Virus record (IMG/VR): IMGVR_UViG_2597489889_000001
Coordinates: 51 to 64,050 of that record
Source of the DNA: a virus
Lineage: Duplodnaviria; Caudoviricetes
Length of the DNA: 64,000 nucleotides
Direction: 5' to 3' (one strand)
Shown one piece after another: positions 12,828-58,836 of the stretch. A program made the position numbers and the translations under genes. The stretch's first letter is position 1. Every line of letters starts with the position of its first letter. Under the pieces are notes generated by a model, which saw nothing but the letters and a program-made list of their open reading frames with translations, searched no databases and was not told the origin of the DNA.

Positions 12828-13108
12828 ATACAGTAACTGCGGCCTTGCCGCGCAAGAGCCTGACCTCTGACGAACGAGACTTTCTCAAGCAGGGCAACCG
12901 GCTGCTGCTCGACAAGCCGAATGGGCGCATCGCCGCCGCCGCCCTGATGGACCTGGTCGCCGACTGGGGCAACCATCGTGGCAGCCTTGGCTTCCAGGAC
13001 TACGCCCGCCGATGGATCACCGAAGGGCACGCAAAGAACAAAATCGCCGACAAGATGCTCCGTGAGCTATTTGGCCTGAACGAACCGACACCGAGGAAAG
13101 CGGCATGA
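12824..13108 (+). CDS. Phage hypothetical protein
   Basis: ATGA-coupled start MNTVTAALPRKSLT. Confidence 0.65.
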   Translation: MNTVTAALPRKSLTSDERDFLKQGNRLLLDKPNGRIAAAALMDLVADWGNHRGSLGFQDYARRWITEGHAKNKIADKMLRELFGLNEPTPRKAA

Positions 13109-13488
13109 ATACAAGAAAACCATCGCGTCTGCCGCTGGGCGATACCGAGTACATGCTTGAGCAATGGGGCTTCTGGCGCATGGATGGCATGGGCGTGCCG
13201 AGCTATGTGTCACCGTCCTGGGCGATCATGCGGGACATGGTCCCATCGACGAGCAAGTCCTACGTCATCACCGACGAACTGGCCAGTGTTGTTGATGGAG
13301 CTGTCGCCAGGCTTTGCAAGCGTGCGCCAGAGATGGGCGACTTCATTTGGCTCTACTACGGAGCCAAGTGGCCAGCCAAGCGGATCGGCAACAAGTACGA
13401 AATGAGCGAGGCGAAGGCCCGGGAGATTATCAAGACGGGCGTGGGATGGATCGATTGTTCTCTGGAGCGATTGATAGAAGCCGCATAA
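13105..13488 (+). CDS. Antiterminator Q-family protein
   Basis: LEQWGFW...ITDELASVVDGAVARL...GVGWID; last early gene before a pR'-like promoter and terminator. Confidence 0.8.
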   Translation: MNTRKPSRLPLGDTEYMLEQWGFWRMDGMGVPSYVSPSWAIMRDMVPSTSKSYVITDELASVVDGAVARLCKRAPEMGDFIWLYYGAKWPAKRIGNKYEMSEAKAREIIKTGVGWIDCSLERLIEAA

Positions 13489-13560: not shown

Positions 13561-13590
13561 AAAGCCCAGCCCACGCGCTGGGCTTTTTTT
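13561..13590 (+). terminator. tR'-like intrinsic terminator
   Basis: AAAGCCCAGC-ccacgc-GCTGGGCTTTTTTT. Confidence 0.8.
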
Positions 13591-13771
13591 ATGCCCAGAA
13601 TTTATGCGAGAGCGTGGAGCCATAGCCAGGATGGGCCTTCGGGCGGGCCTGGACGCGGTATCGCCGGTAGTCACGCGTTACGAAAGAACACCGGCAGCTT
13701 GAGCAGCTAATTCTGTGTGCTATTGGGGCTGGCTCAAGCGGACAGGCGTGGAGAGACACGCAAACCTATTT

Positions 13772-13800
13772 CGAGGCTCGCCATATTGGCGGGCCTTTTT
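13772..13800 (+). terminator. Second late-leader terminator
   Basis: GGCTCGCCA-tat-TGGCGGGCC-TTTTT. Confidence 0.7.
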
Positions 13801-13816
13801 CATTGAGGCACAGCAA

Positions 13817-14707
13817 ATGTCCGATCCTGAACTCCAATCCGTTCGCGCTCAGTTCTATGCACTCAGCGCCCAGATCCAGACCGAGTCGGTTGCGCGAGTG
13901 GCGGCGGACGCGGCATTGGCAGCGCGGATCGACTCAGTTGAAACAGCGCGCGTCGGTGATATCCAGAGCGCCAACTACGTGCCGGGCGCTTCCGGCTGGA
14001 AGCTGGAACAAGACGGTACCTTCGAGATCAACTCTTGCATCCTCGGTAGCGCTGCCAAAGCGCCTGAGCGCCAGATGGTGTCGGTCGAGGTGGCCAGCTG
14101 GAGCAAGTACGACTTGCCCAAGAATGCCGCCAACCTGCTCCAGTTCATGCAGGCCGAGCTGCAAAAGGTACCAGAGCAGTATCGCCACGCCGCCGAGTTC
14201 GAAGAGTTCGACGCGAGCTACGGCGATGAATCCTTCAATGCTCGCCTGTTTTTGAGCTACTCACGGCTCGAAACCGAGGAAGAGCTAGCTGATCGTCTGG
14301 AGAAGGCGAAGGTCGCCGGCACGCGCGTCAGCATCAAGAATGGTGAAATGATCGTTACGCATGACGGTGTTGTGCGGTTCAAGATCGGCAATCCGGATCA
14401 GCCAGAGCCTGAGAAACCCCAGCCCTTCAAGGTTGATGGCGATCAGGTCTACATCAACGAGGCCTTCATCGAGGATGCAGTGCTCGACAGCAAGCTCGCC
14501 GCCAGCTGGTCGGTGAATACGCAGGTCCTGGCCAACGGGCAGTACTACTCAGCCGGCGTTGGCCTGGGCCTGCCTTCGCGGTTCGTTGTGTCGGCTGATC
14601 GCTTCGGTGTGACCAGGGACGGACAGACCGATCTTGAGCGGGCTATCGCCAGTGGTGATGCCATCAAGATCCTCAAAGTGTTGGCTGGCAATATCGGCGA
14701 GACCTAG
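13817..14707 (+). CDS. Protein built from J/DUF1983-like tail-tip segments in rearranged order; frame stays open past the TAG to 14824
   Basis: Segments IQSANYVPGASGWKL, PFKVDGDQVYINEAFI and ASWSVNTQV...SADRFGV match this window's two J proteins. Confidence 0.75.
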   Translation: MSDPELQSVRAQFYALSAQIQTESVARVAADAALAARIDSVETARVGDIQSANYVPGASGWKLEQDGTFEINSCILGSAAKAPERQMVSVEVASWSKYDLPKNAANLLQFMQAELQKVPEQYRHAAEFEEFDASYGDESFNARLFLSYSRLETEEELADRLEKAKVAGTRVSIKNGEMIVTHDGVVRFKIGNPDQPEPEKPQPFKVDGDQVYINEAFIEDAVLDSKLAASWSVNTQVLANGQYYSAGVGLGLPSRFVVSADRFGVTRDGQTDLERAIASGDAIKILKVLAGNIGET

Positions 14708-14860
14708 CTTGACCAAGAGCTGAAAGAGCAGGTTGACCTACTGGGTTCGAATCTCGCCGACCAGGTCAAAGCGGTGATCCGCCGCGAGCTCATGCCGGGC
14801 GGCCTGCTTCACCGCTCCCGCTAATCCATTCCTTCACTCCCTCACCGGGAGGATACCGAG

Positions 14861-15187
14861 ATGAACCCAATGCCAGAGAAAACCCCCGACTTCTGGGCGC
14901 AAGTCTGGCTGGTCCTCTCGAACCCACTGTGGCAGGGCGCAATCATGGCCTTCACGATCACATTGTTGCGCGTGCTGTACGACGCCAAAGAGCCGAACTA
15001 CTGGCGAACCTTGTTCGAAGCGCTGCTGTGCGGGGCCTTGAGCCTATCCGCCAGCAGCATCATCGAGTGGATGGAGTGGCCGCCAAGCCTTTCAGTGGCT
15101 GCCGGTGGCGCTATTGGCTTCATCGGCGTGACAGCGATCCGCGACCTGATCATCAGGTTCCTGGGCAGAAAGGCGGACTCAGCATGA
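14861..15187 (+). CDS. Lambda-family holin
   Basis: Three hydrophobic segments; EALLCGALSL and GGAIGFIGVTAIRDL; RBS GGAGG. Confidence 0.85.
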   Translation: MNPMPEKTPDFWAQVWLVLSNPLWQGAIMAFTITLLRVLYDAKEPNYWRTLFEALLCGALSLSASSIIEWMEWPPSLSVAAGGAIGFIGVTAIRDLIIRFLGRKADSA

Positions 15188-15570
15188 AGGCGATAGCAGT
15201 GGCAATCATCGTCGCCCTGGTTGGCCTGTTGCTCGTCGGCATCCAGCAGATGCGTGTTGAGGATCTGCGAAACGAAAAGCTCGTTGAGACCCAGGCCAAG
15301 GACGAGGCGGTCAAGGCCAACACGGAGAGCCAGGCCACAATCACAACCCTTCGGGCCGAGGCCCAGCGCAACGCCGCTTACACCGCCGATCTGGCCAAGC
15401 GCATCAAGGCCAGCGAGAAGAAAGCCGAGAAGGCGAGGAAAGACTTTGAAGAACTCAAGCGCAACAGCAAGCCTGTTCGTGACTGGGCTGCTCAGCCTCT
15501 TCCTGACGGCCTGCGCGGCAAAGCCGGCGGTAGTAACAAAGACCCAGGCCGTAAGACTGGAGGCCCCTGA
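15184..15570 (+). CDS. Inner-membrane spanin (Rz/LysB-like)
   Basis: N-terminal TM followed by coiled coil; C-terminal PVRDWAAQPLPD. Confidence 0.8.
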   Translation: MKAIAVAIIVALVGLLLVGIQQMRVEDLRNEKLVETQAKDEAVKANTESQATITTLRAEAQRNAAYTADLAKRIKASEKKAEKARKDFEELKRNSKPVRDWAAQPLPDGLRGKAGGSNKDPGRKTGGP

Positions 15571-15718
15571 GCTGATCCCATGTGAGCGGGTCGACCAGGA
15601 AGACGCCGACCTTCACTTCAACGGCGACGTTTGGGAGCTGAAGGACAAGGCCATCAAGCTGCTCGATACGTGCGCTGACCAGGTCGACGCCCAGATCGTC
15701 CGCAGCCAGAGCAAGTAA
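15446..15718 (+). CDS. Outer-membrane spanin lipoprotein (Rz1/LysC-like); start approximate
   Basis: Overlaps the Rz 3' end; lipobox LFLTA-C; TTG start candidate. Confidence 0.7.
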   Translation: MKNSSATASLFVTGLLSLFLTACAAKPAVVTKTQAVRLEAPELIPCERVDQEDADLHFNGDVWELKDKAIKLLDTCADQVDAQIVRSQSK

Positions 15719-16429: not shown

Positions 16430-16681
16430 ATGGCGTTAACAAACAAAAAACGCCGTTTTGTCGAATCAAAGGCTGATGGGGCCTCGAATCGCGAAGCGGC
16501 GGAGGCCGCTGGATACGCGGCCGCTAGCGCTTCGGCGGCTGGATCGAGGCTTGCCAAAGATCCTGATGTTGTTGCCGCTCTGGAGAAGTTAAAGGCCGGT
16601 CGGAATGTTAAAGGCTCGTCAGTTGCGCCAGTCCGCCAAGATGCTCCTGGAGGCAACAGGCGGTTTGACGTCGCGACCTGA
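16430..16681 (+). pseudogene. Terminase small subunit, N-terminal HTH only; runs out of frame into terL sequence
   Basis: LTNKKRRFV...AAEAAGYAAASASAAGSRLAKDPDV, then unrelated tail ending at 16681. Confidence 0.8.
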
Positions 16682-21041: not shown

Positions 21042-21491
21042 ATGATCGACCTGGCGCGAGTGAAGAGTCACCTCAAGGTCGATGACGATGAAGAGGATGC
21101 TCTGATCGCCGGCTACTTGGAGGCGGCCAAGTCCCATGTGGGTATGCACTGCGACAGGGAACTGGTCGAGGCTGATCCTGTGGAGCCTGCTCAAATGGGG
21201 CTGACCCCTGATGTCGAGCAGGCCATCCTGCTTTTGGTTGGTCACTGGTACGCCAACCGCGAGGGCGTGGCGCTGGGCACCATATCAACCACCGTACCGC
21301 TGGCTGTTGGGCCAGAGCTATCTGCGGACCATCACCTCAGGCAATCGGGACGCCACAAGTTCTTGGCGCTCTCAAGAGGCCGCTGTGCGTGCGCAGGGCG
21401 CGGCAATGCAGTCTCTCACTTCCACAGTGGGCAGCTATGCCGCCGCAATGGCTGGTGCATTGGCAGTGGGCAACGTTGTTCACCAGGCTGA
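21042..21491 (+). pseudogene. Head-tail connector (HK97 gp6-like); native sequence breaks at ~21310 and continues out of frame into tape-measure DNA
   Basis: LARVKSHLKVDDDEEDALI...QAILLLVGHWYANRE...VPLAV, then non-homologous. Confidence 0.8.
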
Positions 21492-24400
21492 CGCCTGGAA
21501 CCAAGTAAATGCTAGGCTCAAACAGGCCACCACCAGCACTGAAGACTTCGCCGTAAGCCAGAAATCCTTGTTTGAACTGAGTCAGCGTACTGGCACTTCG
21601 TATTCAGATAATGCCGGTTTGTTCAGCCGCTCGGCGTCATCGATGCGTGAATTTGGGTATTCAACATCTGAGGTGCTTGGAGTTACAGAAGCATTATCGG
21701 TGGGTCTGCAAGTATCCGGTGCGACCTCAGCTGAGGCTTCCTCTTCTATCACTCAGTTTGCTCAAGCACTTGCCCAGGGCGTGCTGCGCGGGGAGGAATT
21801 TAACTCCATCGCTGATAGCGGAGATCGTGTTCTACGCGCGCTTGCGGCAGGGATGGGCGTTGCTAGGAGCGAGCTCAAGGCCATGGCTGATAAAGGGCTG
21901 ATCACTATTGATAAGCTCGTGCCAGCGCTGATCAGCCAGCTTGGGGTCCTAAATGAAGAGTTCGGCAAAATGCCCCCTTCAGTCAGCCGCTCAACCACGG
22001 CCCTGACTAATGCCTTCCAGGCGTGGATTGGAGGAGCTGACTCAGCAACCGGCAGCACAGCGGTTCTCTCTGGTGCGATTGACCTTGTTGCAAAGAACAT
22101 GGATGTATTGGCCGCGTCGGCGTTAACTGCGGGCGCCGCCTATGTCGGACTGAAGTCTGGCGAACTGATTAAGGGGTTGCGTGATCAGGTCGGCGCTTTG
22201 CGGGAAGCCCGATCTGCCGAAATTGGCCGGACTACCGCCCAGCTTGATGCGGCCACAGCCGCCGCCCGCCGTACCGCTGCAGAAGTGATCGCCGCAGAAT
22301 CCCAGGTCGCAGCGACAAGATTTACCGATGGTCATACCGCAGCCCTCAGCCGCCTTCGACTCGCCAGGCTGGCTGATACCCAAGCAACCGTCGCGCAGAC
22401 CGCCGCGCAAGCCGCCCAAACAGCCGCGACATCACTGGCTGGGCGGGCCGGATCGGCGCTGCTTGGGGTAATGGGTGGCCCGGCCGGGCTTGCTGTTACC
22501 GCCGGCGCCGTAGCGGCGAGCTATTTATTGTTCCGCGACAACAGCGATAAGGCCCGGCAAGCTACCGTCGACCTAAAGCGCCCCGTGGAGGAGTTGCGCA
22601 AAGAATTTTCCGAGCTTGGCAAAGAGCAGGCGCGGTATAAGCTTGACGGCGTTATCCAGCAGCAGGCGGACGCACAGGTCGCGGCACAGAAGGCGCTACG
22701 CGAGATCCGCGCCGCTGCCCAGGGCAATGACAAGTGGGGCGATACCTACTCGGCCAACCCGTTCCAGCGCGATCGGGCGGTGACAGACTTCAATCGTCGC
22801 ATTGCCGGCGGCCAGGATATTGATTCGGCCAGTCAGCAGTTGGTCGCGGCAATCGGTCCAAACAAGGAAATGACCAACGCCATCAACGCCTCGGCAGCAG
22901 CGTACGGTGAGGCCATCAAGGCCTCCGGCGATTACGGTGACGTCGCCAATATACTGACAGCACGATTAAACGATGTCGCTGACGCGGCCGACCAGGCCGG
23001 TGCGGGCCTGAAGAAGATAGAGGGGCCGGATCAGAAAACGATTGACGGCTGGACCAGTTACTCCAAGACGCTGGTGGAGCGACTGAATTCGGTGCGGGAT
23101 GGCGGAGACCTGGTCGGTGAGGTGAATCGCCGTATTGAGCGTGAGGGCGTCGACCCAGCTACTGCGGAAGGCTGGCGCATTCTAGCCGGTGCTATCAAAG
23201 GTTCCGAGGCTGCGGCCAAGGCGTCGGAGGAAGCCCAGCAGAAGGCGAAGAAAGCGGCGGAGGATATTCACCGCCAAGCCGAACAACTCAACAACGCTTA
23301 CAAGCAGACCCTGGCCAACCTCACACAGCAGGTAGCGCTATATGGTGAAACTACCGAGATAGGGCGCCTCCGCTACGAGCTCACCACTGGCGAGCTTTCG
23401 AAGCTATCAGCGAAGAACAAGGTAATGCTCGAGGGCAAGGCCATTGAGCTCGACGCGCTCAATGCCAGAAAGGCCTATGACGGCTTGATGTCAGGCCTTC
23501 AAACCAAAGAGCAGGCCCTGCTTGCAACCACGAAAGAGCGGATGCAGGTCCTGGAAACAGCCAATCGCGCTGGGAAGCTGTCGTCAGACGACTATCGCGC
23601 CGGCGCTGATGCCATCTCGAAAGCCACCGTTACCGAGGCGCCAGAGTTTGGTGGCATCGACTCATCGGTGGGCGGGCCGTCCGGTGAGCTGGTCAAGATT
23701 GCAGAGGCCGAGGCCGCCCTGAAAAAGTGGCACGACAAGCAGATGTCGATGCAGGCCGAACTTCGCGATCAGATCCTGGCCGACCAGCAAAGCACCAACG
23801 AACAGAAGCTCGCCGCCGAGCAGCAGTACTTGGACCGGGTGGTGGAAATCAACCAAACGAACCAGGCGAGGCTTTCTGACATTCAGGGCGCCTATAAAGT
23901 GGCCGTGATCGGCACCTTCAGCGAGTTGTCGGGCCAGGCCGCAGACATGGTTGGCAAGATCGCTGGCGAGCAGTCTGGCGCATACAAGGCGTTGTTTGTC
24001 GCGCAAAAGGCGTTCGCGGTGGCGTCGATCATCATGAACGCCCAGATAGCTGCAGCGAAGGCACCGGCGGAACTGACCATCCTGGGCGGTATACCGGTGG
24101 GCGCGGCGCTGCTGGCAGCGGGTTACGCAAATGCGGGCATGGTCGCCGGCATGGCGCTGGCCGGGTTCTCCGAAGGTGGTTTTACCGGCCCGGGTGGCAA
24201 GTTTGAGCCGAAGGGTGTGGTTCACGGCGGCGAGGTGGTCATCCGCAAGGAGGTGGTCGATCAGCCTGGAATGAAGGATTACCTCATCGGCCTGAACCGT
24301 AGCGGTAAGCCAGGCTATGCGAGCGGCGGATTCGTCGGAAGCCCAGGTATCACACCGGCCTTCACCGCTCCATCTGTCGCGGCGGGCGCCGGGTCAGGCT

Positions 24401-24597
24401 CTGCCCCAGAGATTCACCTTCACATCAATGGCGACGGATCTGGTGGATCTGTGAACGCGCCGGAAGGCTATGAGCAGATGGGGCTGGCGCTGCTTGCCAC
24501 CGCACGCTCCGAAATGCCCAAGATCGCGCGCCAAGTGATCGTGCAAGAGAAAGGCCAAAACGGCCTGCTCGATCCAAACAACCGGAGAAATAGCTGA
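21311..24597 (+). pseudogene. Tape measure protein lacking its N-terminus (possible internal start at 21406)
   Basis: AQFAQALAQGVLRGEEFNS tape-measure domain and GGFTGPGGKFEPKGVVHGGE motif; no native start or RBS. Confidence 0.8.
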
Positions 24598-26981: not shown

Positions 26982-29900
26982 ATGTCTAAAATCGCAACAG
27001 CGCCTGCTGCAAAGCATCGGCGCCGGCCTACTGCTGCCCGCGTTTTGGGCGCCAAGGGGGGCGAGCAGAAGCCATACACGCCCTACAAGGCACCCGATAC
27101 TGCGCTTTCTGTTGCCACTGTAAAATTGCTCTATGCCTTGAGTGAGGGCCCAATCGTCGGCCTGGTCGATGATAAGAAGTCGGTAAAACTCAACGGCACG
27201 CCGCTGGTCTCGCCTGACGGTAGCGAGAACTTTCCCGGTACCGTTTGGGATTTCCGCCCGGGCACTGTGGACCAAGAACACATTCCAGGCTTTCCGGCCA
27301 TTGAGAACGAGGCGTCCCAGGGGCTGCCGGTTGAGTTGAAGTCGGATAACGCCTGGACGCGTGCGATCACTGATCAGCAGTTGTCGGCTGTGCGCATCCG
27401 TTTGTCCTGGCCGCAAATTTGGCAGGTCAAGACGAATGGCGACCAGATCGGCTACCGCATCGACTACGCCATTGATCTTTCCGTAGATGGCGGAAGCTAT
27501 CAAACGGTTTTGTCGGCGACCCTGGACGACAAAGGGACAACCGAATACGAGCGCACCCATCGAATCGACCTCCCTGAGGGCTTCACCAGTGCGCTGGTTC
27601 GCGTGCGCCGACTCACCCCCAACCGAAACGATTCCAATTTTGCGGACCTGATGCGCATCAAGGGGCTGACGGAGGTAATCGACAAGAAGCTCCGCTATCC
27701 GAACCTGGCGCTGGGCGGCCTGCAGTTCGATGCCAAGCAATTCCAGGACACGCCAAAGGCCAGCTTCCTGATGCGCGGCCGAATTATTCAGGTACCGACG
27801 AATTACAACCCAGAGACCCGGACCTATACAGGTGACTGGAACGGCACCTTTAAGCTTGCCTATACAAATAACCCGGTCTGGGTTTGGCGCGACCTGCTGT
27901 TGCATCGTCGCTATGGCTTGGGCCGCCGCATCACCGCTGACATGGTGGATCACTGGACGCTGTACGAGATCGGTCGCTATTGCGACGTGATGGTGCCAGA
28001 CGGCAAGGGCGGTATGCAGCCGCGTATGACCACCAATGTCTATATTCAGGATTCGATTGAGGGATACGCGCTCCTTTCGGATCTGGCCAGCGTGTTCCGT
28101 GGCAGCAGCTGCTGGAACGGCTCGCAGGTCACTATGGTGGCGGACATTCCCGGCAACGAGGACGGCTACGTTTTCACCCGCTCGAACATTATTGGCGAGT
28201 TCGAGATGGTGGGTGCCGCCTATCCTGATCGGCACACCAGGGCAAAAGTCGCATGGGATAACCCGGAAAACGAGTTCAAGACCCAACCGGCTCCGGTAAC
28301 CAATGAGGAACTGATCGGCGCCCTCGGGCACCGGATGCTGGATATCTCGCGTTTCGGCTGTACCGTGGAGGGAGAAGCAATCCGTCACGGTATCTGGGCG
28401 CTCAAGTCTGAGCAGTATGAGGAGTGGTCGGTAAGCTTCACCACCGGCATGGAAGGCCGCAACGTCGAGCCTGGCCAGATTATCTGCGTGGCAGATGAAA
28501 CCTTCGCTGGCCGGCCAAATGGCGGTCGGATCAGTGCGGCCACCAGGCGCGTGATAACTCTCGACATTGACGCCGAGGTACACGAGGAGGACCGTCTGAT
28601 CCTCAACTTGCCGAGCGGCAAATCCGAAGGTCGTATCGTAAAGTCGGTCTCCGGGCGCCTGGTCACCGTCATGGCAGACTATTCGGAGCTCCCAGAGGCT
28701 GAATGCAGTTGGTCCGTGGAAAGTGCTGATCTGGCCGTGATGCGCTTTCGTGTGCAGACCATCGAGCCGCAAGGGCTGCACCAGTTCAAGATAGCTGCCA
28801 CTCAACATGAGCCCCTTAAGTACCAGGCGATCGACACTGGCGCACGCATTGACCCACAGCCAACGAGCATCATTCCACCAGGGGTGATGTCTCCGCCGGA
28901 TAACGTCAGCATCGAGGCGCGCAGCGTCGTATCGCAAGGCATTGCTGTTACCAGTATGCGTATCACCTGGGACTCGGTACCGGGGGCCATTGCGTACAAC
29001 GTGGAATGGCGCAAGGACAGCGGAAACTGGATCCGCTTGCCGCGCACGGGGAGCTTGGGTGCAGAAGTTGAGGGCATCTACAGCGGTCGCTACGTTGCTC
29101 GGGTTAGCTCGGTCAACGCAATGGACGTGGCCTCTATTTGGGGCGCCAGCCCTGAAGTGATGCTGACAGGCAAGACCGGCCTGCCACCGGCGGTGTCGTT
29201 CCTAACCACCACCAGCCTTGTATATGGCATTGGCATTCAGTGGGGATTCCCACCAGGTGCAGAGGACACTGAGCGCACGGAACTTTGGTACAGCCAAACG
29301 GCTGACCTGGCGACCGCGATAAAGCTGAGCGACTTCAGTTACCCGCAAGCCAAGCACGAAATGCACAGCCTGTTGGCTGGCGCGAGTCTGTTCTTCTGGG
29401 CTCGCCTGGTGGATCGGACCGGCAACGTCGGCCCATTCTTCCCTGTACCTGGTGCGGTCAATGGTCAGGCCAGTTCGGATCAATCCGAGTATGAAAAATA
29501 CTTTGCGGACAAGATCGGAAAGGGCGCCCTGTACCAAAGCCTTCGAGAAGAGATCGAGCTGATTACAGGTGATGGTCCAGGATCTGTGAATGAACGCCTG
29601 GAGGAGGCCAAGCAGGAACTTGAAGACCTGATCAAGAAAGTGAGCGATGCCCTCGCTTACGACCCGGCAAAGCCGTATTTGAAGGGCGAAATCGTGCGTC
29701 TGGATCAACGCCTCTACCAAGCGAAAGGCCCTGTGCCTGTCGGCGCAACGCCGCCCGACGCCACGTACTGGACCGATATTGGCACCATCATTGAGACCAC
29801 TGACGCGCTGGTGTCGCAGGTCCAGATCATCGAAACCAAGATCGAGGAAATCGACGGCAAGGTGTTGGCCACCGCTACCTCCGTCGAGGCGTTGCGTTCT

Positions 29901-30977
29901 GCTGCTCGGGGTGATGATGGCGCTGGCGATCTTGCCGACGCAGTCAAGGGTTGGACATCCACGGCGGATCTTGCCGTTGAGCGTAAAACCCGAGCCAGCG
30001 AAAATGATGCGATGGCCCAGCAATTGCTGACCTTGGGCGCACAGGTTGGTGACAACAAGTCGTCGCTGACGGTGCTTGAGCAGGTTGTTGCCACCAACCG
30101 CGAAACGTCCGCAACGCAGATCACCCAACTCAAGAGTGACCTGTCTGCGGTTGATCAAAAGGCGATCGGCAATGCCCAAGCGATTAATGGCCTCGACACG
30201 AAGGTCACCAACTTGGACGGGCGGGTCACGGCCCAGGCATCCAGCAATGAATCACTGCGTGCTTCGGTGCGTGGTGACGACGGCGCCGGCGAACTGGCGG
30301 GGGCGTTGAAAGCGTATGAGTCCACCGCAAGTATCGCCCAGCAGATGCGTGTTGAAGCATCTCGCGAATTAGCAACTGCTGAGCGGCTGACTACCTTGCA
30401 GGCCGGGATTGATAGCGCGAAGGGGCTTATTCAGCAGGAGGAGCTGGTAAGAGCCACAGCGATAGAAGTGCAGTCCAAACGGACTGATACGGTCCAGGCC
30501 AGTCTGGGCCAGACCAATGCATCGGTTCAGCAGGTGAGTCAGGTCGTAGCGGGCCTTGACGGCAAGGTATCGGCACAGACAACCATCAAGGCCCAGACCA
30601 ATGTGGACGGAAAGAAAGTAATGGCGGGGCTCGCTCTGGGCAGCGATGGGGAGACGTCCGAAATTCTGGCGTTTGCTCAGCGATTCGCCATTATCGACGA
30701 GGTCAGTGGCGCTGCAACTTTCCCGTTTGTGGTTTCTGGCGGGCAGGTGTTCATTAGTTCGGCAGTAATTAAGACGGGCATGATCACCAATGCCATGATC
30801 GGTAATTACATTCAGTCAAATAACTACGTGGCAGGGGTCAGCGGGTGGAGGCTTTCATTCGACGGTACGTTTGAAATGAACGGGAATATTGCTGGCCTTG
30901 GCACCATGAGGCTAACCAATACATTCCTTAAATTCATTTACGCCAACGGTGTGGTTGGTATTGATCTGAGTCTCTAA
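26982..30977 (+). CDS. Central tail fibre / host-specificity protein J (FN3, coiled coil, DUF1983-like C-terminus)
   Basis: GAKGG N-terminus, YTNNPVWVW, IQSNNYVAGVSGW. Confidence 0.92.
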   Translation: MSKIATAPAAKHRRRPTAARVLGAKGGEQKPYTPYKAPDTALSVATVKLLYALSEGPIVGLVDDKKSVKLNGTPLVSPDGSENFPGTVWDFRPGTVDQEHIPGFPAIENEASQGLPVELKSDNAWTRAITDQQLSAVRIRLSWPQIWQVKTNGDQIGYRIDYAIDLSVDGGSYQTVLSATLDDKGTTEYERTHRIDLPEGFTSALVRVRRLTPNRNDSNFADLMRIKGLTEVIDKKLRYPNLALGGLQFDAKQFQDTPKASFLMRGRIIQVPTNYNPETRTYTGDWNGTFKLAYTNNPVWVWRDLLLHRRYGLGRRITADMVDHWTLYEIGRYCDVMVPDGKGGMQPRMTTNVYIQDSIEGYALLSDLASVFRGSSCWNGSQVTMVADIPGNEDGYVFTRSNIIGEFEMVGAAYPDRHTRAKVAWDNPENEFKTQPAPVTNEELIGALGHRMLDISRFGCTVEGEAIRHGIWALKSEQYEEWSVSFTTGMEGRNVEPGQIICVADETFAGRPNGGRISAATRRVITLDIDAEVHEEDRLILNLPSGKSEGRIVKSVSGRLVTVMADYSELPEAECSWSVESADLAVMRFRVQTIEPQGLHQFKIAATQHEPLKYQAIDTGARIDPQPTSIIPPGVMSPPDNVSIEARSVVSQGIAVTSMRITWDSVPGAIAYNVEWRKDSGNWIRLPRTGSLGAEVEGIYSGRYVARVSSVNAMDVASIWGASPEVMLTGKTGLPPAVSFLTTTSLVYGIGIQWGFPPGAEDTERTELWYSQTADLATAIKLSDFSYPQAKHEMHSLLAGASLFFWARLVDRTGNVGPFFPVPGAVNGQASSDQSEYEKYFADKIGKGALYQSLREEIELITGDGPGSVNERLEEAKQELEDLIKKVSDALAYDPAKPYLKGEIVRLDQRLYQAKGPVPVGATPPDATYWTDIGTIIETTDALVSQVQIIETKIEEIDGKVLATATSVEALRSAARGDDGAGDLADAVKGWTSTADLAVERKTRASENDAMAQQLLTLGAQVGDNKSSLTVLEQVVATNRETSATQITQLKSDLSAVDQKAIGNAQAINGLDTKVTNLDGRVTAQASSNESLRASVRGDDGAGELAGALKAYESTASIAQQMRVEASRELATAERLTTLQAGIDSAKGLIQQEELVRATAIEVQSKRTDTVQASLGQTNASVQQVSQVVAGLDGKVSAQTTIKAQTNVDGKKVMAGLALGSDGETSEILAFAQRFAIIDEVSGAATFPFVVSGGQVFISSAVIKTGMITNAMIGNYIQSNNYVAGVSGWRLSFDGTFEMNGNIAGLGTMRLTNTFLKFIYANGVVGIDLSL

Positions 30978-35295: not shown

Positions 35296-35538
35296 ATACA
35301 GATCCTCCTTTTCATAGTTGGTTTCGGCGCCCGAGCTGCGCCAAATACAAAAGTCGGATTTGGCGCTGCATCGATTCTTGCCATAATTTTGCCCGTTGGA
35401 TATGTGGCGTAATATGGCAAGAAAGCTGTCTAATACTAGGTCGGGCTATCCCGGTTTTACAGGCCCTCCCACGCACTTCCTTTCTCATTAGTTTTAGACA
35501 GTGATTGGTTGGAAGCCAATGAACACGTAGTCTTTAGG

Positions 35539-35773: not shown

Positions 35774-35789
35774 GAAAGGCGGTGTGCAA

Positions 35790-36613: not shown

Positions 36614-36649
36614 TTGCCAACCTCAAAAACTCCCGTCACTATCCGCGTT

Positions 36650-50185: not shown

Positions 50186-50469
50186 CGGCCGCCGATGAGT
50201 TCTGGCACGAACTGGTGCTGAACGGAGTGGGCGGCCGCACGATCGCCGAAGCCAAGGAACGCATGACCTACCACGAAGCCCTGGCCTGGGGACGCTATAT
50301 CGACCGATATGGCTCCCTGCACGCCGGTAGGCGGCTGGAGGCGGGCAGCGCGTTGGTGGCGCTGCAGACCCACCGGCTGGGCGGCGGCACGGCCGAGATG
50401 ATTGACTTCATGCCCCACGAGCTGCGCCGGGGTGTGTCGCTTGAACGTGCGATGAACGAGTGGCGTTAA
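50176..50469 (+). CDS. F-type chaperone extension, probably reached by -1 frameshift near GCA AAG (50174-50179)
   Basis: -1 frame KELTAADEFWHELVLNGVGGRTIAEAKERM; heptamer is non-canonical. Confidence 0.6.
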   Translation, partial: KELTAADEFWHELVLNGVGGRTIAEAKERMTYHEALAWGRYIDRYGSLHAGRRLEAGSALVALQTHRLGGGTAEMIDFMPHELRRGVSLERAMNEWR

Positions 50470-50531
50470 GGACGACGCCACTTTCCTTGAAACCCGTTTC
50501 GACGGGTTTTATCCATGACCCGGAGAAACCT

Positions 50532-51755
50532 ATGGCAACTGCTTCCCAGGGTAATCTGACGCTCAACCTCGGCAGCCTGGAGCAGGCCCTGGCGAAGGCG
50601 TCGCGGATTACCGAAAACAGCATGCGCGAGATGCAGCAGAAGATCGAGGACGCCAGTAAAAAGGTCAGCGCCTCTGCTGCAGCTGCGCTACAGGTCACGT
50701 CCGGTCAGTTCAAGGGCTTTCAAAGGGCCTATGACCCGGCCACGGATGCGGCGGAAAAATTTATCCAGAAAAATGCGCAACTGGTGCAAGTGCTCAAGCA
50801 GAGTCAGGGTGCGCAGAATGATTTTGTTGGCGCGCTGGATGCGCAGTCCAGTTACACCGAGCGGGCGGGGCTGAAGTTTCCAGTGGGTGGGCCGTACGCA
50901 GAGGCTGTACCGACGCCTTCGGGTGACGACGCGGCGATGGCATTTCTGGACGACGCAAAGACCCGGCAGGTAAAGAGCAACTTCGCCGAAATGACGCAGT
51001 TGCTTGATGACTGGCGCCAGGGGGCGAGCAGCGCATTCGAAGAGTATTCGACCAAGGCAGGCACGGCGGCCGAGCAGTCGAAGGCAGTGTTTAGCAGTGC
51101 TTTCGAAAAGATGGACCAGGCTGTTCTGACGTTCGCGACCACGGGGAAATTCAACTTCTCAGATTTTGCTACCTCGGTTCTCAAGGACATGGCCACGATG
51201 GCGGCGAAGACCGCGGCATCCAGTGCGCTGAGTTCGTTGTTCGGGCTGGCCAGTTCGGCAGTGGGCGCCTGGTTGGGCAGCAGCACGCCCGCTCCGACAA
51301 CCACCAGTGTCGGTGCTAACAGCTACACCTTTAACCCCCAGCTCAACACGGCGGGTATTCATTACAACGCGAAAGGGAGCGCCTGGAACTACGGTGTTCA
51401 AGCCTTCGCCAACGGCGGCACCTTCACCAATTCCGTCGCCTCAGGCCCAACCCTGGCCCCCATGGCCCTCTTCGGCGAAGCCGGCCCCGAAGCCATCATG
51501 CCTCTGAGCCGTGGCTCCGACGGCTCCCTCGGTGTGCGCGCACTGGGCGGCGGTCAGTCAGGCAGCACCAGCAGCAACCAGGTGGTGATCCAGCAAACCA
51601 TCAACGTTGCCGACGGCCAGGGCTCAGGCACCGACACCAACGCCCAGAACGTTGCCCGCGCCTACGCCGGCTCTGCCCGTCAGGGCGCCGCCGAGCAGAT
51701 CGCCCGCGACCTCAAGCCGGGCGGGCAAATCTGGTCGGCCATCAACGGCCGCTGA
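50532..51755 (+). CDS. F-type tape measure protein (lambda-type C-terminus), short at 407 aa
   Basis: DWRQGASSAFEEY, FANGG, GEAGPEAIMPL, DLKPGGQIW. Confidence 0.88.
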   Translation: MATASQGNLTLNLGSLEQALAKASRITENSMREMQQKIEDASKKVSASAAAALQVTSGQFKGFQRAYDPATDAAEKFIQKNAQLVQVLKQSQGAQNDFVGALDAQSSYTERAGLKFPVGGPYAEAVPTPSGDDAAMAFLDDAKTRQVKSNFAEMTQLLDDWRQGASSAFEEYSTKAGTAAEQSKAVFSSAFEKMDQAVLTFATTGKFNFSDFATSVLKDMATMAAKTAASSALSSLFGLASSAVGAWLGSSTPAPTTTSVGANSYTFNPQLNTAGIHYNAKGSAWNYGVQAFANGGTFTNSVASGPTLAPMALFGEAGPEAIMPLSRGSDGSLGVRALGGGQSGSTSSNQVVIQQTINVADGQGSGTDTNAQNVARAYAGSARQGAAEQIARDLKPGGQIWSAINGR

Positions 51756-55011: not shown

Positions 55012-58000
55012 ATGACTGACCTCACTCTCGCTGGCAGCAAAGGCGGCGCGTCCAAGCCCCGTCCCTCCGTGGAGGCGCCAGACAGCCTGCAAAGTACGGC
55101 CTATGCCCGTATCCTCGATCTCGTCAGCGAAGGCGAGATTGTCGGTTTGAAAAACGATAAGCGCTCGGTGTTTCTCGACGAGACCCCGCTGGCCAACGCC
55201 GATGGCAGCCTCAACTTCAGTGGCGTGACCCTCGACACCCGCAATGGCAGCCAGGACCAGTCACACATCCCTGGCTTCCCGGCAGTGGAAAACGAAAGCC
55301 CGGTGTCCATCGAGCTGCGCAGCGATCAGCCCTGGACCAAGTCCTACTCCAACCTGCAATTGTCGGCAGTGCGGATACGCCTGGCGGTCACGCGACTGTC
55401 GCAGACCAACACCAGCAATGGCGACACCAACGGTTATACAGTGCAGTACGCCATTGACCTGTCTACCGACGGCGGTGCGTTTACAGAGGTGCTGGCCGCC
55501 GCGTTCAGCGGTAAAACCACCACCAAGTACGAACGTTCCCACCGCGTTGACTTGCCCCCTGCCAAAGTGGGCTGGGCCCTGCGCGTGCGGCGGATCACAC
55601 CGAACTCCACCAGTGGCGCGATTGCCGATACCACCACCGTGGAGTCTTCCACTGAGGTGATTGATGCCAAGCTGCGCTACCCGGGCTCGGCGTTGATCGG
55701 TCTGCAATTCGATGCCGCGCAATTCCAGTCGATCCCCTCGCGCTCTTTCGAACTGCGTGGGCGAATTATCAAGGTGCCGAGTAACTACGACCCGCAAACC
55801 CGTGTGTACAGCGGCGTGTGGGACGGCACGTTCAAATCCGCCTGGACCGACAATCCGGCATGGATTTACTACGATCTGCTGTTGCACCAACGCTATGGCC
55901 TGGGCCACCTGCTCAACGCCGGCCAAGTGGACAAGTGGGAGCTGTACCGCATCGGCCAGTACTGCGACCAGCCGGTGTCCGACGGCAAGGGCGGCACCGA
56001 ACCGCGCTTCACCTGCAACCTGTACCTGTCGGTGCGCGCCGACGCCTTGAAGGTGCTGCAAGACCTGGCGACCACCTTCCGTGGCATGTCCTATTGGGGC
56101 GCGGGTTCGGTGATGGCGGTGGCGGACATGCCGGAAGACCCGGTCTACACCTACTCCAACGCCAACGTCATCGGCGGCCAATTCATCTACGGCGGCTCGG
56201 CGAAAAAGACCCGCTACACCGTCGCCCTGGTCAGTTGGAATGACCCGACGGATTTCTATCGCCAGAAGGTGCAGTACGTCGACGACGCCGAAGGCATCGC
56301 GCGCTATGGCATCCAGCAAACCGAAATCAGTGCCACCGGTTGTACCTCCCAGGCGCAAGCCCAACGCATCGGCAAATGGGCGTTGCTGACCAACCGTCTG
56401 GAAACCGAAAGCGTAACCTTCTCGGTTGGCCTCGACGGCACCCTGGCCCGCCCCGGCCAGATCATCCGCGTGGCCGACAACGACCGCGCCGGCCGCCGCA
56501 TTGGCGGGCGCCTGCGTGCTGCCACACTCGACAGCCTGACCCTGGATGCCGAAGTCACCGCCACTGCCGGCGACACCATCACCCTGGTAATGCCCAACGG
56601 CAAGGCGGTGTCCCGGGCGGTCAAGTCCGTCAGCGCCGCAGGTGCGGATGAGCAGTTGGTAGTGCTGCAAACCAGGCTCGACGAACTCCCGCCGGCCCAA
56701 TCGATCTGGGCTATCGATTCGGCGACCCTGGCTTTGCAACAGTTTCGCGTACTGTCGATATCCGAAGACTTTTCGGATGACGAAATCAAATACAGCCTCA
56801 GCGCGGTCAAGCACGTACCGAGCAAATTTGCCGCCATCGACAACGGCGCCAAAATCGACAGCCCGCCGATCACCGTGATCCCGCCGAGCGTGCAAGCAGC
56901 ACCTACCGGCGTGACGGTCAGCAATGACCATTTCGTCGAGCAAGGCAGTGCGGTCAATGTCATGACCATCGAGTGGCAGCGGGCGGCCAATGCCATCGCC
57001 TATGAGGCTTACTGGCGCAAGAACGACGGTGAGTGGGTCTACGCTGGCCGCACGGGCGGCAGTTCTATCGAGGTGTCCGGCATTTATGCCGGGCGTTATG
57101 TGGCCAAGGTGCGGGCGATCAACGCGCTGGATATCGGCTCCCTGTATAGCGAGTCCGTGGAGACCGTCCTTAACGGCAAGACCACACTGCCGCCGACCGT
57201 GGCAGCGCTGACGACGGAGTCGTTGGTGTTTGCGATCAAGGTCAAATGGCAGATTCCGCAGGGGGTGAGCACAGCGGATTTGCAGCGCACGGAGATCTGG
57301 TACGGGAAAACCGCTGATTTGGCGATGGCAACCAAGCTGGGGGATTACGCCTATCCGCAGACCGATTTGACCATGATGGGGCTGGCGGCGGGGACGTCGT
57401 TGTTTTTCTGGGCACGGTTGGTGGATCGCACGGGCAATATCGGGCCGTGGTTTCCAAGCGGGTCGGGCGTCAACGGGCAAGCGAGTTCGGATGCGTCGCC
57501 GATTCTGGATCTGATCGCAGGGCAAATCAGCGAGACGGAACTGGGCAAGCACTTGCTCGACCGTATCGAGTTGATTGATGGATCTGGCTCGGGTTCGGTC
57601 AACGACCGATTGGACAATACCCGTAAAGAACTGCAAGCACTGGTTGATCAAGTCACGGATGCGTTGCTGTACGACGCGGCCAGGGCATATGCCAGTGGCG
57701 AGTTTGTACGCCAGGAGAGTCATCTTTACCAGGCTATCCAGGCAGTACCGGCTAACAGCCCACCGCCTAACGCGGCTTATTGGCTGGACATTGGCTCCCT
57801 GGTGCAAACCAGCAATGCACTGGCGTTGCAGATCCAGCAGAACAAAACGGCGATTGAGACGGTGGACGGCAAGGTCACCAGTACTGCCCAGAAAACCGAC
57901 GGGGTGTATGCCCAGGTCAACCCGAAGATGGCAGGTGACGAGCAAACCTCATTCGCGGGCGATGACGTTTCCATGGCTGGCACTTGGTCGGTGATGTCGG

Positions 58001-58836
58001 CGATTGCCGAGGGTGATATTGCCCAGGCGATGAAGACGGATGCGTTGGAGGTGAGGGTCAATCAGAACCGAGCCAGTATTACCACCGTAGACAGCGCTTC
58101 TGCTTCCCGGGATGAAGCCCTTGCCCAGCGGGTTACGCGGCTGGATGCAAGGGTCAGTCAGAACCAGGCCAGTATCACCAACGTAGACAGCGCTTCTGCC
58201 TCCCGAGATGAAGCCCTTGGCCAGCGGGTTACGCAGCTGGATGCAAAGGTCAATAACAACTCGGCATCGATCGATACGCGACTGACGACCTTGGCCACTG
58301 CGGATAAAACGCTGGCCCAAAGCATTGAAACGGTACAGACCAAAGTTAACCAACAGTCAGTGAGTATCCAGACCAATGCCTCGGCGATTGCGGATACCAA
58401 TGGGAAGTTGGCGGCGAATTGGTCAGTGCGGATGCAAGTTGCTGCGGGTGGTGGTTATAAGTTCGCCGGTATTGGGTTGGGCATCGAGAATGGTCCAGGT
58501 GGGTTGCAAAGTCAGTTTCTGATTTCAGCGGATCAGTTTGCGATTTATAACGAAAATACCCCGGGTAAGCCGACAACGCCCTTCGCAGTCAGGGGGACTG
58601 AGACGTTTATCGATAGTGCATTCATTCAGAACGGCACGATCACTAACGCCAAAATTGGTCAGGTTATTCAGTCCAATGATTATCAGCCGGGTGTCCGTGG
58701 TTGGAAGCTTGACAAGGCGGGGGGGTTGGAACTTAACGGGGTAGGGGGCGGTGGCCGGATGACCATCAGCAATCAATTGGTTCAAGTGTTTGATGCTAAC
58801 CAGGTATTGCGTGTTCGATTCGGGATCTGGGGTTAA
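55012..58836 (+). CDS. F-type central fibre J
   Basis: GSKGG, WTDNPAWI, FN3, DUF1983-like C-terminus. Confidence 0.92.
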   Translation: MTDLTLAGSKGGASKPRPSVEAPDSLQSTAYARILDLVSEGEIVGLKNDKRSVFLDETPLANADGSLNFSGVTLDTRNGSQDQSHIPGFPAVENESPVSIELRSDQPWTKSYSNLQLSAVRIRLAVTRLSQTNTSNGDTNGYTVQYAIDLSTDGGAFTEVLAAAFSGKTTTKYERSHRVDLPPAKVGWALRVRRITPNSTSGAIADTTTVESSTEVIDAKLRYPGSALIGLQFDAAQFQSIPSRSFELRGRIIKVPSNYDPQTRVYSGVWDGTFKSAWTDNPAWIYYDLLLHQRYGLGHLLNAGQVDKWELYRIGQYCDQPVSDGKGGTEPRFTCNLYLSVRADALKVLQDLATTFRGMSYWGAGSVMAVADMPEDPVYTYSNANVIGGQFIYGGSAKKTRYTVALVSWNDPTDFYRQKVQYVDDAEGIARYGIQQTEISATGCTSQAQAQRIGKWALLTNRLETESVTFSVGLDGTLARPGQIIRVADNDRAGRRIGGRLRAATLDSLTLDAEVTATAGDTITLVMPNGKAVSRAVKSVSAAGADEQLVVLQTRLDELPPAQSIWAIDSATLALQQFRVLSISEDFSDDEIKYSLSAVKHVPSKFAAIDNGAKIDSPPITVIPPSVQAAPTGVTVSNDHFVEQGSAVNVMTIEWQRAANAIAYEAYWRKNDGEWVYAGRTGGSSIEVSGIYAGRYVAKVRAINALDIGSLYSESVETVLNGKTTLPPTVAALTTESLVFAIKVKWQIPQGVSTADLQRTEIWYGKTADLAMATKLGDYAYPQTDLTMMGLAAGTSLFFWARLVDRTGNIGPWFPSGSGVNGQASSDASPILDLIAGQISETELGKHLLDRIELIDGSGSGSVNDRLDNTRKELQALVDQVTDALLYDAARAYASGEFVRQESHLYQAIQAVPANSPPPNAAYWLDIGSLVQTSNALALQIQQNKTAIETVDGKVTSTAQKTDGVYAQVNPKMAGDEQTSFAGDDVSMAGTWSVMSAIAEGDIAQAMKTDALEVRVNQNRASITTVDSASASRDEALAQRVTRLDARVSQNQASITNVDSASASRDEALGQRVTQLDAKVNNNSASIDTRLTTLATADKTLAQSIETVQTKVNQQSVSIQTNASAIADTNGKLAANWSVRMQVAAGGGYKFAGIGLGIENGPGGLQSQFLISADQFAIYNENTPGKPTTPFAVRGTETFIDSAFIQNGTITNAKIGQVIQSNDYQPGVRGWKLDKAGGLELNGVGGGGRMTISNQLVQVFDANQVLRVRFGIWG
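58057..58250 (+). repeat. Two 96-bp (32-aa) tandem repeats in the J coiled coil
   Basis: VNQNRASITTVDSASASRDEALAQRVTRLDAR / VSQNQASITNVDSASASRDEALGQRVTQLDAK. Confidence 0.88.

What the first reader, a model, noticed from the sequence alone, without database searches (positions are those of the whole stretch)
13817..14824. Scrambled tail-tip mimic: J and tape-measure motifs in permuted order between Q and holin
Seen, by comparison with this window's J proteins: (a) coiled coil ESVARVAADAALAARID; (b) IQSANYVPGASGWKLEQDGTFEIN, cf. IQSNNYVAGVSGWRLSFDGTFEMN; an unrelated ~95-aa insert; (d) RVSIKNGEMIVTHDGVVRFKIG, cf. RMTISNQLVQVFDANQVLRVRFG; (e) PFKVDGDQVYINEAFI, cf. PFAVRGTETFIDSAFI; (f) AASWSVNTQV..SADRFGV, cf. 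AANWSVRMQV..SADQFAI; (g) ILKVLAGNIGET-LDQELKEQVDL, cf. ILDLIAGQISETELGKHLLDRIEL; (h) VIRRELMPGGLL, cf. tape-measure end IARDLKPGGQI. J has the order g-a-f-e-b-d; this gene has a-b-d-e-f-g-h, so it is not a simple J fragment. Inference: a decoy built from tail-assembly interfaces, either poisoning competitor tail assembly (tail-assembly interference is a known defence mode) or soaking up host sensors that detect tail proteins.
Basis: partly seen in the sequence, partly recalled or inferred. Interest (0 to 1): 0.78.

Follow-up and report, generated by a model that had tools for sequence, protein, structure and literature searches.

The report
Tail-tip look-alike gene, truncated here
Between the late-gene switch (Q) and the lysis genes of a Pseudomonas prophage sits a conserved accessory gene assembled from re-ordered pieces of the tail-tip fibre J, a tape-measure-like tail and a small conserved domain of unknown function; this copy is cut short by a stop codon, and the family's function is untested.

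Summary
Gene X (13817-14707, 296 aa) matches J's distal-fibre domain (PF09327, 1.2e-22) in separate stretches whose order differs from J's. The same order recurs in homologues, so it is a family trait. Homologues carry AAG/GAG/CAG/GAA there and continue into a conserved C-terminus, so this allele is truncated. That lost tail resembles tape-measure (TMP) C-termini in reciprocal genome-scale profile searches.

X is not a decaying fragment. Over 160 Pseudomonas homologues exist, and the contexts examined place the gene upstream of the holin/lysis genes (after Q where one was recognised). They are under purifying selection. The "unrelated insert" is the most conserved part (dN/dS about 0.09) and also occurs as stand-alone ~105-aa phage proteins with no known fold relative.

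X is accessory: a prophage with an identical capsid protein lacks it, and a relative carries other cargo in the slot. X shows no homology to Tai, Ati, Tab or anti-Tab, and its J-like modules do not co-vary with the cognate J.

Best reading (about 0.35): a late-expressed, non-structural tail-tip mimic that competes for partners of J's distal end and the TMP C-terminus. This is unproven. The prophage here also has a terminase deletion.

The parts
13105..13488 (+). Q-type late antiterminator (127 aa)
   Evidence: PF06530 Phage_antitermQ, E 1.3e-10.
13568..13590 (+). First terminator-like hairpin with T-run in the late leader
   Evidence: Relatives diverge upstream of 13559 (loose ends).
13773..13803 (+). 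Second terminator-like hairpin, 14 nt before the start codon of X
   Evidence: No sigma-70-like promoter was found between 13000 and 15300.
13817..14707 (+). Gene X as encoded here: 296 aa, ending at TAG
   Evidence: PF09327 1.2e-22. phrog_18217 1.3e-38. 167 homologues.
13817..13951 (+). Residues 1-45: coiled-coil segment resembling the end of J's long coiled coil (motif a). Many homologues lack it.
   Evidence: Helix 4-45 in the model. J profile 128-165 at 1.3e-3. F2-pyocin fibre 1019-1061. 46 of 120 homologues start at motif b.
13952..14035 (+). Residues 46-73: motif b, the first half of J's C-terminal module
   Evidence: 5e-9 against J1. 2.8e-13 against the J profile.
14036..14320 (+). Residues 74-168: conserved inserted alpha/beta domain, replacing the short loop between J motifs b and d
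   Evidence: Nearly invariant in the family. dN/dS 0.085. Stand-alone homologues. Model pLDDT 89.5. No fold relative found.
14321..14476 (+). Residues 169-220: motif d (beta-hairpins, weak match) and motif e (PFxVxGxxVYIxxAFI)
   Evidence: Motif e: 7.9e-6 and 6e-5. Motif d: not significant alone.
14477..14617 (+). Residues 221-267: motif f, equivalent to the strands that follow J's coiled coil
   Evidence: 1e-9 against J2. 7.9e-13. Matches lambda J 857-908 and the F2 pyocin fibre.
14618..14704 (+). Residues 268-296: helical segment carrying the first half of motif g
   Evidence: Helices 267-293 in the model. Weak J matches.
14705..14707 (+). Premature TAG. Homologues carry AAG, GAG, CAG or GAA at this codon.
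   Evidence: No suppressor tRNA in the window or the genome.
14708..14824 (+). 38 untranslated in-frame codons plus TAA: end of motif g and the TMP-like tail h (VIRRELMPGGLLHRSR)
   Evidence: phrog_18217 positions 174-216 at 3.4e-8. Reciprocal TMP C-terminus profile hits.
14861..15187 (+). Holin
   Evidence: PF05106, 5.4e-32.
15184..15718 (+). Rz and Rz1 spanin pair
   Evidence: phrog_89 at 3e-27 and phrog_456 at 4.8e-13.
21211..24597 (+). The prophage's own tape-measure protein. Its C-terminus is divergent (…QEKGQNGLLDPNNRRNS).
   Evidence: PF20155. Tail sequence. Found by neither C-terminus profile.
26982..30977 (+). J1, the central fibre of the same prophage (comparator)
50460..51755 (+). 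Tape-measure protein of the neighbouring F-type tailocin cluster; ends …IARDLKPGGQIWSAINGR
   Evidence: The foreign-TMP profile hits it at E 0.004.
55012..58836 (+). J2, the central fibre of the F-type tailocin cluster (comparator)

Best explanation
Gene X belongs to a Pseudomonas-prophage family of accessory late genes.

Architecture of the intact protein (about 280-340 aa):
- An optional coiled coil.
- J's C-terminal module (b-d), split by a strongly conserved ~90-aa alpha/beta domain.
- J's e and f modules, in the opposite order to J.
- A helical segment resembling the stretch that precedes J's coiled coil.
- In about 60% of members, a C-terminal helix resembling the last residues of tape-measure proteins.

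Shown:
- This architecture.
- The position downstream of two terminator-like hairpins and upstream of the holin.
- Purifying selection.
- Dispensability for the virion module.

Inferred:
- The J-type modules are trimer-forming in solved fibres, so X probably forms a soluble homotrimer late in the lytic cycle.
- That trimer would look like the distal tail tip plus the TMP's C-terminal plug. It would act by competing for whatever binds those two surfaces.
- I lean towards a protective sponge for factors that block tail assembly. [quoted passage not shown]
- Poisoning of rival tails or tailocins is the other direction of the same mechanism.

The allele in this window:
- It stops at a TAG 38 codons early and lacks the TMP-like helix.
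- It is probably a crippled or altered version.
- It lies in a prophage that also has a terminase deletion.
For: - Mosaic, non-colinear J matches that recur in homologues.
- Reciprocal similarity between X's C-terminus and TMP C-termini at genome scale.
- In F7 pyocin, the last 33 TMP residues form a trimeric helix inside the tip that binds the hub-internal protein, and J's C-terminal 139 residues form prism and beta-helix layers (PMC12874032).
- Position is kept in the contexts examined: Q-X-holin in L005, Q-X in L001 (no holin family recognised downstream), and X-holin in L003 (with a small DUF2513-like gene between Q and X) and in L045 (no recognised Q).
- Two terminator-like hairpins precede X and no promoter-like site was found.
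- dN/dS is 0.085 for the insert and 0.3-0.5 elsewhere, with dS about 0.7-1.2.
- X is accessory. L046 shares a 100% identical capsid protein and a 98% identical tail protein L with L045 but lacks X. The slot in G078 holds other cargo. J-like genes occur in 98 of 300 genus genomes, X in 10 of 300.
- Tai escape mutations lie in the C-terminal region of J, Tab sensitivity maps to the TMP C-terminus, and Ati and anti-Tab are late-operon genes (PMC11364771; PMC10884400).
- The C-terminal tails are modular, with at least four types on a constant b-insert-d core.
Against: - No binding or trimer test could be run.
- X's J-like modules do not score best against the cognate J. Single-residue changes in J are enough to escape Tai. 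A generic mimic may therefore be a poor sponge.
- The X tail does not resemble the window prophage's own TMP end.
- X shows no homology to Tai, Ati, Tab or anti-Tab and no PADLOC hit.
- The invariant part is the inserted domain, not the mimic parts. That domain also exists on its own in early gene regions.
- The truncated allele lacking the TMP-like tail occurs in an apparently complete prophage, so the tail may not be essential.
Confidence: 0.35

Rival explanations
1. The J-like modules are only a trimerising scaffold. The active part is the conserved ~90-aa inserted domain, which binds a conserved host or defence component unrelated to tails. The resemblance to the tail tip is an accident of the scaffold's origin.
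For: - The insert is the most conserved part.
- Of 120 family members, 110 keep its core motif, while the coil, f, g and h are variable or missing.
- Stand-alone ~105-aa homologues sit among small early genes next to integrase or excisionase-like genes, and in one case beside tail-fibre genes.
- The domain folds confidently on its own, with pLDDT 89.5.
Against: - It does not explain why about 60% of members keep a TMP-like C-terminal helix.
- It does not explain why b and the PFKVDGD stretch flanking the insert are also nearly invariant.
- It does not explain why the fusion keeps its position at the start of the late operon.
- No function is known for the domain: no Pfam, NCBIfam, PADLOC or PDB relative was found.
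Confidence: 0.3
2. X is a dispensable virion component. It would be an accessory fibre or decoration anchored through its C-terminal tail, with the b-insert-d head binding a conserved cell-surface feature to aid adsorption.
For: - It is expressed from the late operon.
- It is built from fibre modules.
- Its C-terminal tails are modular, which could be anchors suited to different virions.
- NCBI names relatives 'phage tail tip fiber protein'.
- Being accessory is compatible with this role, as with lambda's side fibres.
Against: - The putative binding head is the least variable part. Receptor-binding tips normally show the opposite pattern.
- X travels with the Q/lysis module, not with the tail module.
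- A TMP-like helix normally docks inside the tip lumen, not on an exposed site.
- No sequenced phage among 50,697 records carries a full X homologue.
Confidence: 0.15
3. In this genome X is simply a dead gene. On this view the family-level function is irrelevant, because the TAG allele is a null allele in a decaying prophage.
For: - The TAG removes 38 conserved codons.
- No suppressor tRNA exists in the genome.
- A conserved Gly is replaced by Asp two codons after the stop.
- The same prophage lost TerS residues 74-156 and TerL residues 1-195.
Against: - The identical TAG allele sits in a prophage with intact terminase, head and tail genes, found at more than 10 similar places.
- The 296-aa product keeps the whole conserved core.
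- Post-TAG codons still show dN/dS of about 0.19 against the nearest intact homologue, so the stop is recent or tolerated.
Confidence: 0.45

Closest known systems
C-terminal central-fibre region of tip attachment protein J (Pfam PF09327; lambda J 8IYK; F-type pyocin central fibre, PDB 25vf and 9ze4; PMC12874032)
   Same: X shares motifs a, b, e and f at significant scores, and motifs d and g weakly. These motifs form the coiled coil, beta-prism and intertwined beta-helix of a trimeric fibre.
   Different: - X has none of the N-terminal hub, FNIII or Phage-tail_3 domains.
- The modules lie in another order (a, b-d, e, f, g in X; g, a, f, e, b-d in J).
- A 90-aa domain is inserted in the b-d loop.
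- A TMP-like tail is appended.
- X is encoded 13 kb from the tail genes, in the Q-holin slot.
C-terminal helix of lambdoid and F-pyocin tape-measure proteins
   Same: The motif (…E-L/M-x-P/Q-G-G-x-L-W/H-R…) lies at the extreme C-terminus and matches in reciprocal profile searches. It is predicted to be helical.
   Different: The rest of X has nothing in common with a TMP. The motif does not match the window prophage's own TMP end. In this allele the motif is not translated.
Anti-Tab (phage JBD26 gp30) and AtiEcA (phi80 orf64), the late-operon antidotes to tail-assembly blockers
   Same: They are accessory, sit in the late operon and are non-structural. The cognate blockers act on the two tail regions that X resembles.
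   Different: No sequence similarity (hhalign probability below 1%). The antidotes are about 76-83 aa and bind the blocker directly rather than mimicking the target. No Tai- or Tab-like partner gene lies next to X.
Cargo of the Q-to-lysis 'moron' slot of lambdoid phages (for example stx in Stx phages)
   Same: Same position behind the late leader terminators. Related prophages carry different cargo there.
   Different: Cargo of this kind derived from tail proteins has not been described, to my knowledge. No paper was found in two full-text searches.

Membership tests
Pfam PF09327 Phage_Tail_Tip (J central straight fibre domain) | HMM score above the gathering threshold | tested here: met
   80.6 bits against a cut-off of 22, E 1.2e-22.
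Pfam PF09327 Phage_Tail_Tip (J central straight fibre domain) | One colinear match across the domain, as in J proteins | tested here: not met
   J1 and J2 match in one stretch each (profile positions 2-128 and 2-135). X matches in 3 stretches. Against a J profile there are four pieces in the order 128-165, 270-306, 229-263, 183-233.
Tip attachment protein J (lambda_TipJ) | N-terminal hub, FNIII-A and Phage-tail_3 domains, and a length of about 1100-1350 aa | tested here: not met
   Only PF09327 was found in X. NF049904 scores 20.7 bits in the intact homologue P0002 against a cut-off of 1950.
PHROG 18217 (unknown function) | Profile match over the family's length | tested here: met
   X 49-296 matches profile 3-170 at 1.3e-38. 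The post-TAG peptide matches profile 174-216 at 3.4e-8.
Tape-measure protein | TMP domain (for example PF20155) and a length that scales with the tail | tested here: not met
   No TMP family hit in X. Only the last ~25-36 residues resemble TMP ends.
Tai tail-assembly inhibitors (TaiEcA, phi80 orf63) | Sequence homology to TaiEcA | tested here: not met
   hhalign probability 0.1%.
Tai tail-assembly inhibitors (TaiEcA, phi80 orf63) | Transcribed divergently and constitutively from the prophage | tested here: not met
   X lies on the same strand as the late operon, directly behind two terminator-like hairpins, with no promoter-like site. Expression itself was not measured.
Ati and anti-Tab counter-defences | Sequence homology to AtiEcA or JBD26 gp30 | tested here: not met
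   hhalign probability 0.25% (insert-domain profile against AtiEcA) and 0.07% (X family profile against JBD26 gp30). Tab itself scores 0.09%.
Ati and anti-Tab counter-defences | Binds and neutralises a cognate tail-assembly blocker | not testable with these tools
Known anti-phage defence systems (PADLOC-DB) | Match to any PADLOC model | tested here: not met
   No hit for X, for P0002 or for a stand-alone domain protein.

The most novel reading that the evidence does not exclude
X is a molecular mimic of the distal tail tip (J's C-terminal prism plus the tape-measure's C-terminal plug), made first in the late operon. It would work by target mimicry at the tail-assembly interface. Either it soaks up Tai- or Tab-like assembly blockers, or it caps the tip complexes of co-induced rival prophages and F-type tailocins. 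The conserved inserted domain would keep it out of the phage's own tails. That would be a new class of phage counter-defence or interference protein, built from scrambled structural modules.
Probability: 0.3. Interest if true: 0.85.

Novelty: new variant of a known kind. Interest (0 to 1): 0.55.

Why it matters
The two known tail-assembly-blocking defences map to the C-terminal part of J and the C-terminus of the tape-measure protein. X joins look-alikes of both in one late-expressed accessory protein.

If it acts by mimicry, it would be the first target-mimic antidote or interference factor for tail assembly. It would also be an example of structural modules being re-ordered into a regulator.

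Apart from that, the inserted ~90-aa domain defines an unstudied phage domain family. The family occurs both alone and fused, and it is under strong constraint.

Tried and rejected
- **Endolysin idea.** X precedes the holin and no lysin follows. I rejected this because a GH19 lysin lies at 33616-34149.
- **Programmed readthrough or suppression of the TAG.** No suppressor tRNA exists in the window or the genome. I did not pursue this further.
- **Monomer AF2 model of full-length X.** Poor (pLDDT 61, pTM 0.23), so it was not used for fold search.
- **Fold searches with the insert domain.** Foldseek against the PDB gave nothing at E <= 0.001. VIA-align wide gave a best Z of 4.1. BFVD returned only uncharacterised phage proteins. 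The ESM Atlas gave no usable hit.
- **Expression.** The four runs laid are contigs of a 97%-identical relative, probably DNA carry-over. They say nothing about transcription.
- **Word-based search for long proteins sharing the C-terminal tail.** It found none, which is weak evidence.
- **Forward X-tail profile against this genome's own TMPs.** No hit.
- **Co-variation of X modules with the cognate J.** None seen.
- **Alternative X tail types.** Fetching the TMP of prophages whose X carries another tail type failed because those records are not held.
- **Earlier scan notes.** A search by sequence found only a note on the leader RNA.

Full report
**What is at the coordinates**

An ORF runs on the + strand from ATG 13817 to an in-frame TAG at 14705-14707 (296 aa). 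A further 38 in-frame codons end at TAA 14822-14824.

Upstream lie a Q-type antiterminator (13105-13488; PF06530, 1.3e-10) and two terminator-like hairpins (13568-13584 and 13773-13797). No sigma-70-like site was found. Downstream lie a holin (14861-15187; PF05106, 5.4e-32) and an Rz/Rz1 pair. The endolysin (GH19) lies far away, at 33616-34149 after the tail genes, so X is not the lysin.

The window holds a lambdoid prophage from roughly 5 to 34 kb. This is followed by a zeta-toxin-like gene and an S24-family (LexA/cI-like) repressor. R- and F-type tailocin genes follow, including a second J at 55012.

**Checking the motifs**

- X passes Pfam PF09327, J's central straight fibre domain, at 80.6 bits. 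It does so in three stretches, whereas J1 and J2 each match in one.
- BLASTP gives (b) against J1 at 5e-9, (f) against J2 at 1e-9, and (d-e) against J2 at 6e-5.
- I built a profile of the last 330 residues of ten J proteins. It hits X in four pieces:

| X residues | J profile positions | E-value |
|---|---|---|
| 7-44 | 128-165 | 1.3e-3 |
| 47-82 | 270-306 | 2.8e-13 |
| 187-222 | 229-263 | 7.9e-6 |
| 223-266 | 183-233 | 7.9e-13 |

- Three homologues show the same non-colinear order, so the permutation is real and is a family trait.
- The simplest description is this. J reads g, coil(a), [f], e, [b-d]. X reads a, [b-insert-d], e, [f], g, h. The two modules on either side of the linker e are swapped.
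- Motif (d) alone is not significant, although its weak hits fall on the last 20 residues of J proteins.
- Motif (g) is weak but positionally consistent in seven J proteins.

**The tape-measure-like tail**

- A 46-position profile of the family's C-terminus does not find this genome's own TMPs.
- It does align end-to-end with the last 36 residues of the TMPs of two other X-bearing prophages, at E 3e-4 to 2e-3 with Z set to this genome's 115,326 six-frame ORFs. The pair reads X …VIRAELRQGGLLWRRR against TMP …EIRRVLQGEMGQGGMLWRRV.
- In the reverse direction, I built a profile from four TMP ends of other genomes and searched this genome. Two TMPs ranked first and second. X's post-TAG peptide ranked third, at E = 0.01.
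- The resemblance is therefore real at the family level.
- In F7 pyocin, the last 33 TMP residues form a trimeric helix inside the tip and mainly contact the hub-internal protein (PMC12874032).

**The stop codon**

- Homologues carry AAG, GAG, CAG or GAA where the window has TAG. They continue into …VKAVIRKELMPGGLLHRSR.
- No other genome sampled has an internal stop.
- No suppressor tRNA exists.
- The post-TAG peptide still matches the family profile at 3.4e-8. Against the nearest intact homologue it shows dN 0.11 and dS 0.61, so the stop is recent or tolerated.
- The identical TAG allele, with 13 nucleotide differences all within 13989-14176, sits in a prophage with intact terminase, head and tail genes (L045).
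- In this window the prophage has also lost TerS residues 74-156 and TerL residues 1-195, so it cannot package DNA.

**A conserved family, not a fragment**

- A word-indexed search returned 167 homologues of 213-436 aa. Those that carry a source name are from Pseudomonas, mostly the fluorescens group.
- In the contexts examined the gene lies at the head of the late genes:

| Locus | Arrangement |
|---|---|
| L005 | Q - X - holin |
| L001 | Q - X; no holin family recognised downstream |
| L003 | Q - small DUF2513-like gene - X - holin |
| L045 | X - holin; no recognised Q upstream |

- Ten of 300 sampled genus genomes carry it.
- Pairwise dN/dS by region:

| Region | dN/dS |
|---|---|
| Inserted domain | 0.085 |
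| Coil (a) and motif b | 0.31 |
| d-e | 0.37 |
| f | 0.51 |
| g-h | 0.41 |

**The 'unrelated insert' is the core**

- Residues about 74-168 are nearly invariant across the family.
- An exhaustive HMMER search of 1.84 billion representatives found the domain only in proteins of 350 aa or fewer, and never in a full-length J.
- It also found about 35 stand-alone proteins of 90-130 aa sharing the motifs LPxNA, IPxEYR and YxRPETDEE.
- The stand-alone genes lie among small early genes beside integrase or excisionase-like genes. One lies beside tail-fibre genes.
- The domain folds confidently as beta-alpha-alpha-beta-beta-alpha (pLDDT 89.5).
- It has no convincing solved relative. It matches only uncharacterised phage proteins in BFVD.
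- It has no Pfam, NCBIfam or PADLOC family.

**X is accessory**

- L046 encodes a capsid protein 100% identical to that of L045, a tail protein L 98% identical and a TMP 89% identical.
- It goes from Q through two hairpins straight to holin-like genes, with no X.
- In G078, where J is 75% and Q 67% identical, the slot holds a 192-aa ORF with an N-terminal signal-like sequence that looks (by eye, not tested) like an outer-membrane protein, plus small ORFs.
- J-like genes occur in 98 of 300 sampled genomes, X in 10.
- X is therefore not an obligatory part of these tails, and it travels with the Q/lysis module.
- Its C-terminal tails are modular. About 60% are TMP-like, and there are at least three other types, all on a constant b-insert-d core.

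**How it may work**

- The F7 pyocin central fibre has a long coiled coil that switches to a beta-prism. It ends in prism, beta-helix and prism layers to which receptor-binding proteins are predicted to attach (PMC12874032).
- X re-uses exactly these distal layers and adds a TMP-like helix.
- Tail-assembly-blocking defences map to the same two regions. Tai escape mutations lie in the C-terminal region of J. Tab sensitivity maps to the TMP C-terminus.
- Their antidotes, Ati and anti-Tab, are late-operon genes.
- This makes a late-expressed target mimic attractive, either as a sponge for such blockers or as a cap on rival tips.
- Evidence against this reading:
  - X is not homologous to any of the four proteins.
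  - Its J-like modules do not track the cognate J.
  - Its tail does not match the window prophage's own TMP.
  - The most constrained part is the insert.
- I therefore give the mimicry mechanism about 0.35, the scaffold-for-an-unrelated-effector reading about 0.3, and an accessory virion fibre about 0.15.
- Whatever the family does, this allele is probably impaired.

**Novelty**

Databases name relatives 'DUF1983 domain-containing' or 'phage tail tip fiber protein', and PHROG 18217 has no assigned function. I found no paper on them. The architecture and its context are a new variant of a known kind (J-derived proteins). A mimicry function, if shown, would be new.

Noticed in passing
window 16430-17741: The prophage's terminase genes are fused by a deletion. 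Only TerS residues 1-73 (of 156) and TerL residues 196-565 (of 565) remain, compared with a 94-99% identical relative. The prophage should be unable to package DNA.
   Followed up: yes
window 14861-15718 and 33616-34149: The lysis cassette is split. The holin and Rz/Rz1 follow X, but the only recognisable endolysin (GH19 chitinase-like, 177 aa) lies about 18 kb away, after the tail-fibre assembly gene.
   Followed up: partly
window 14036-14320; proteins P0159-P0190: The inserted domain defines an unannotated family of ~105-aa stand-alone phage proteins (motifs LPxNA, IPxEYR, YxRPETDEE, then a charged C-terminal helix). They are found in early gene regions next to integrases and once beside tail-fibre genes. 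No known fold relative was found.
   Followed up: partly
L037 12406-12984 (- strand), genome G078: In a related prophage the Q-to-holin slot carries a 192-aa ORF with an N-terminal signal-like sequence that looks by eye like an outer-membrane protein (not tested against any family) instead of X. This shows that the slot takes variable cargo.
   Followed up: no
window 13568-13803: Two terminator-like hairpins bracket about 180 nt of leader before X. An earlier first-reader note (e1-5939119) proposes a structured RNA at 13606-13770. Relatives diverge exactly upstream of 13559.
   Followed up: partly
window 34249-37384: Between the prophage and the tailocin cluster lie three genes: a 347-aa gene with no family, a zeta-toxin-like gene (35957-36499, - strand; PF06414, 1.3e-22) with no obvious antitoxin called, and an S24-family (LexA/cI-like) repressor (36614-37384).
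   Followed up: no
window 12234-12827: A 197-aa ORF between DnaB and Q matches only phrog_32552 (unknown function, 2.9e-74). It recurs at the same place in relatives L005 and L045.
   Followed up: no
genome G000 C1:1516030-1518990 and 1521512-1523848: A third lambdoid tail module (TMP and J homologue) lies about 105 kb beyond the window. This strain therefore carries at least three J-type tail gene sets.
   Followed up: no
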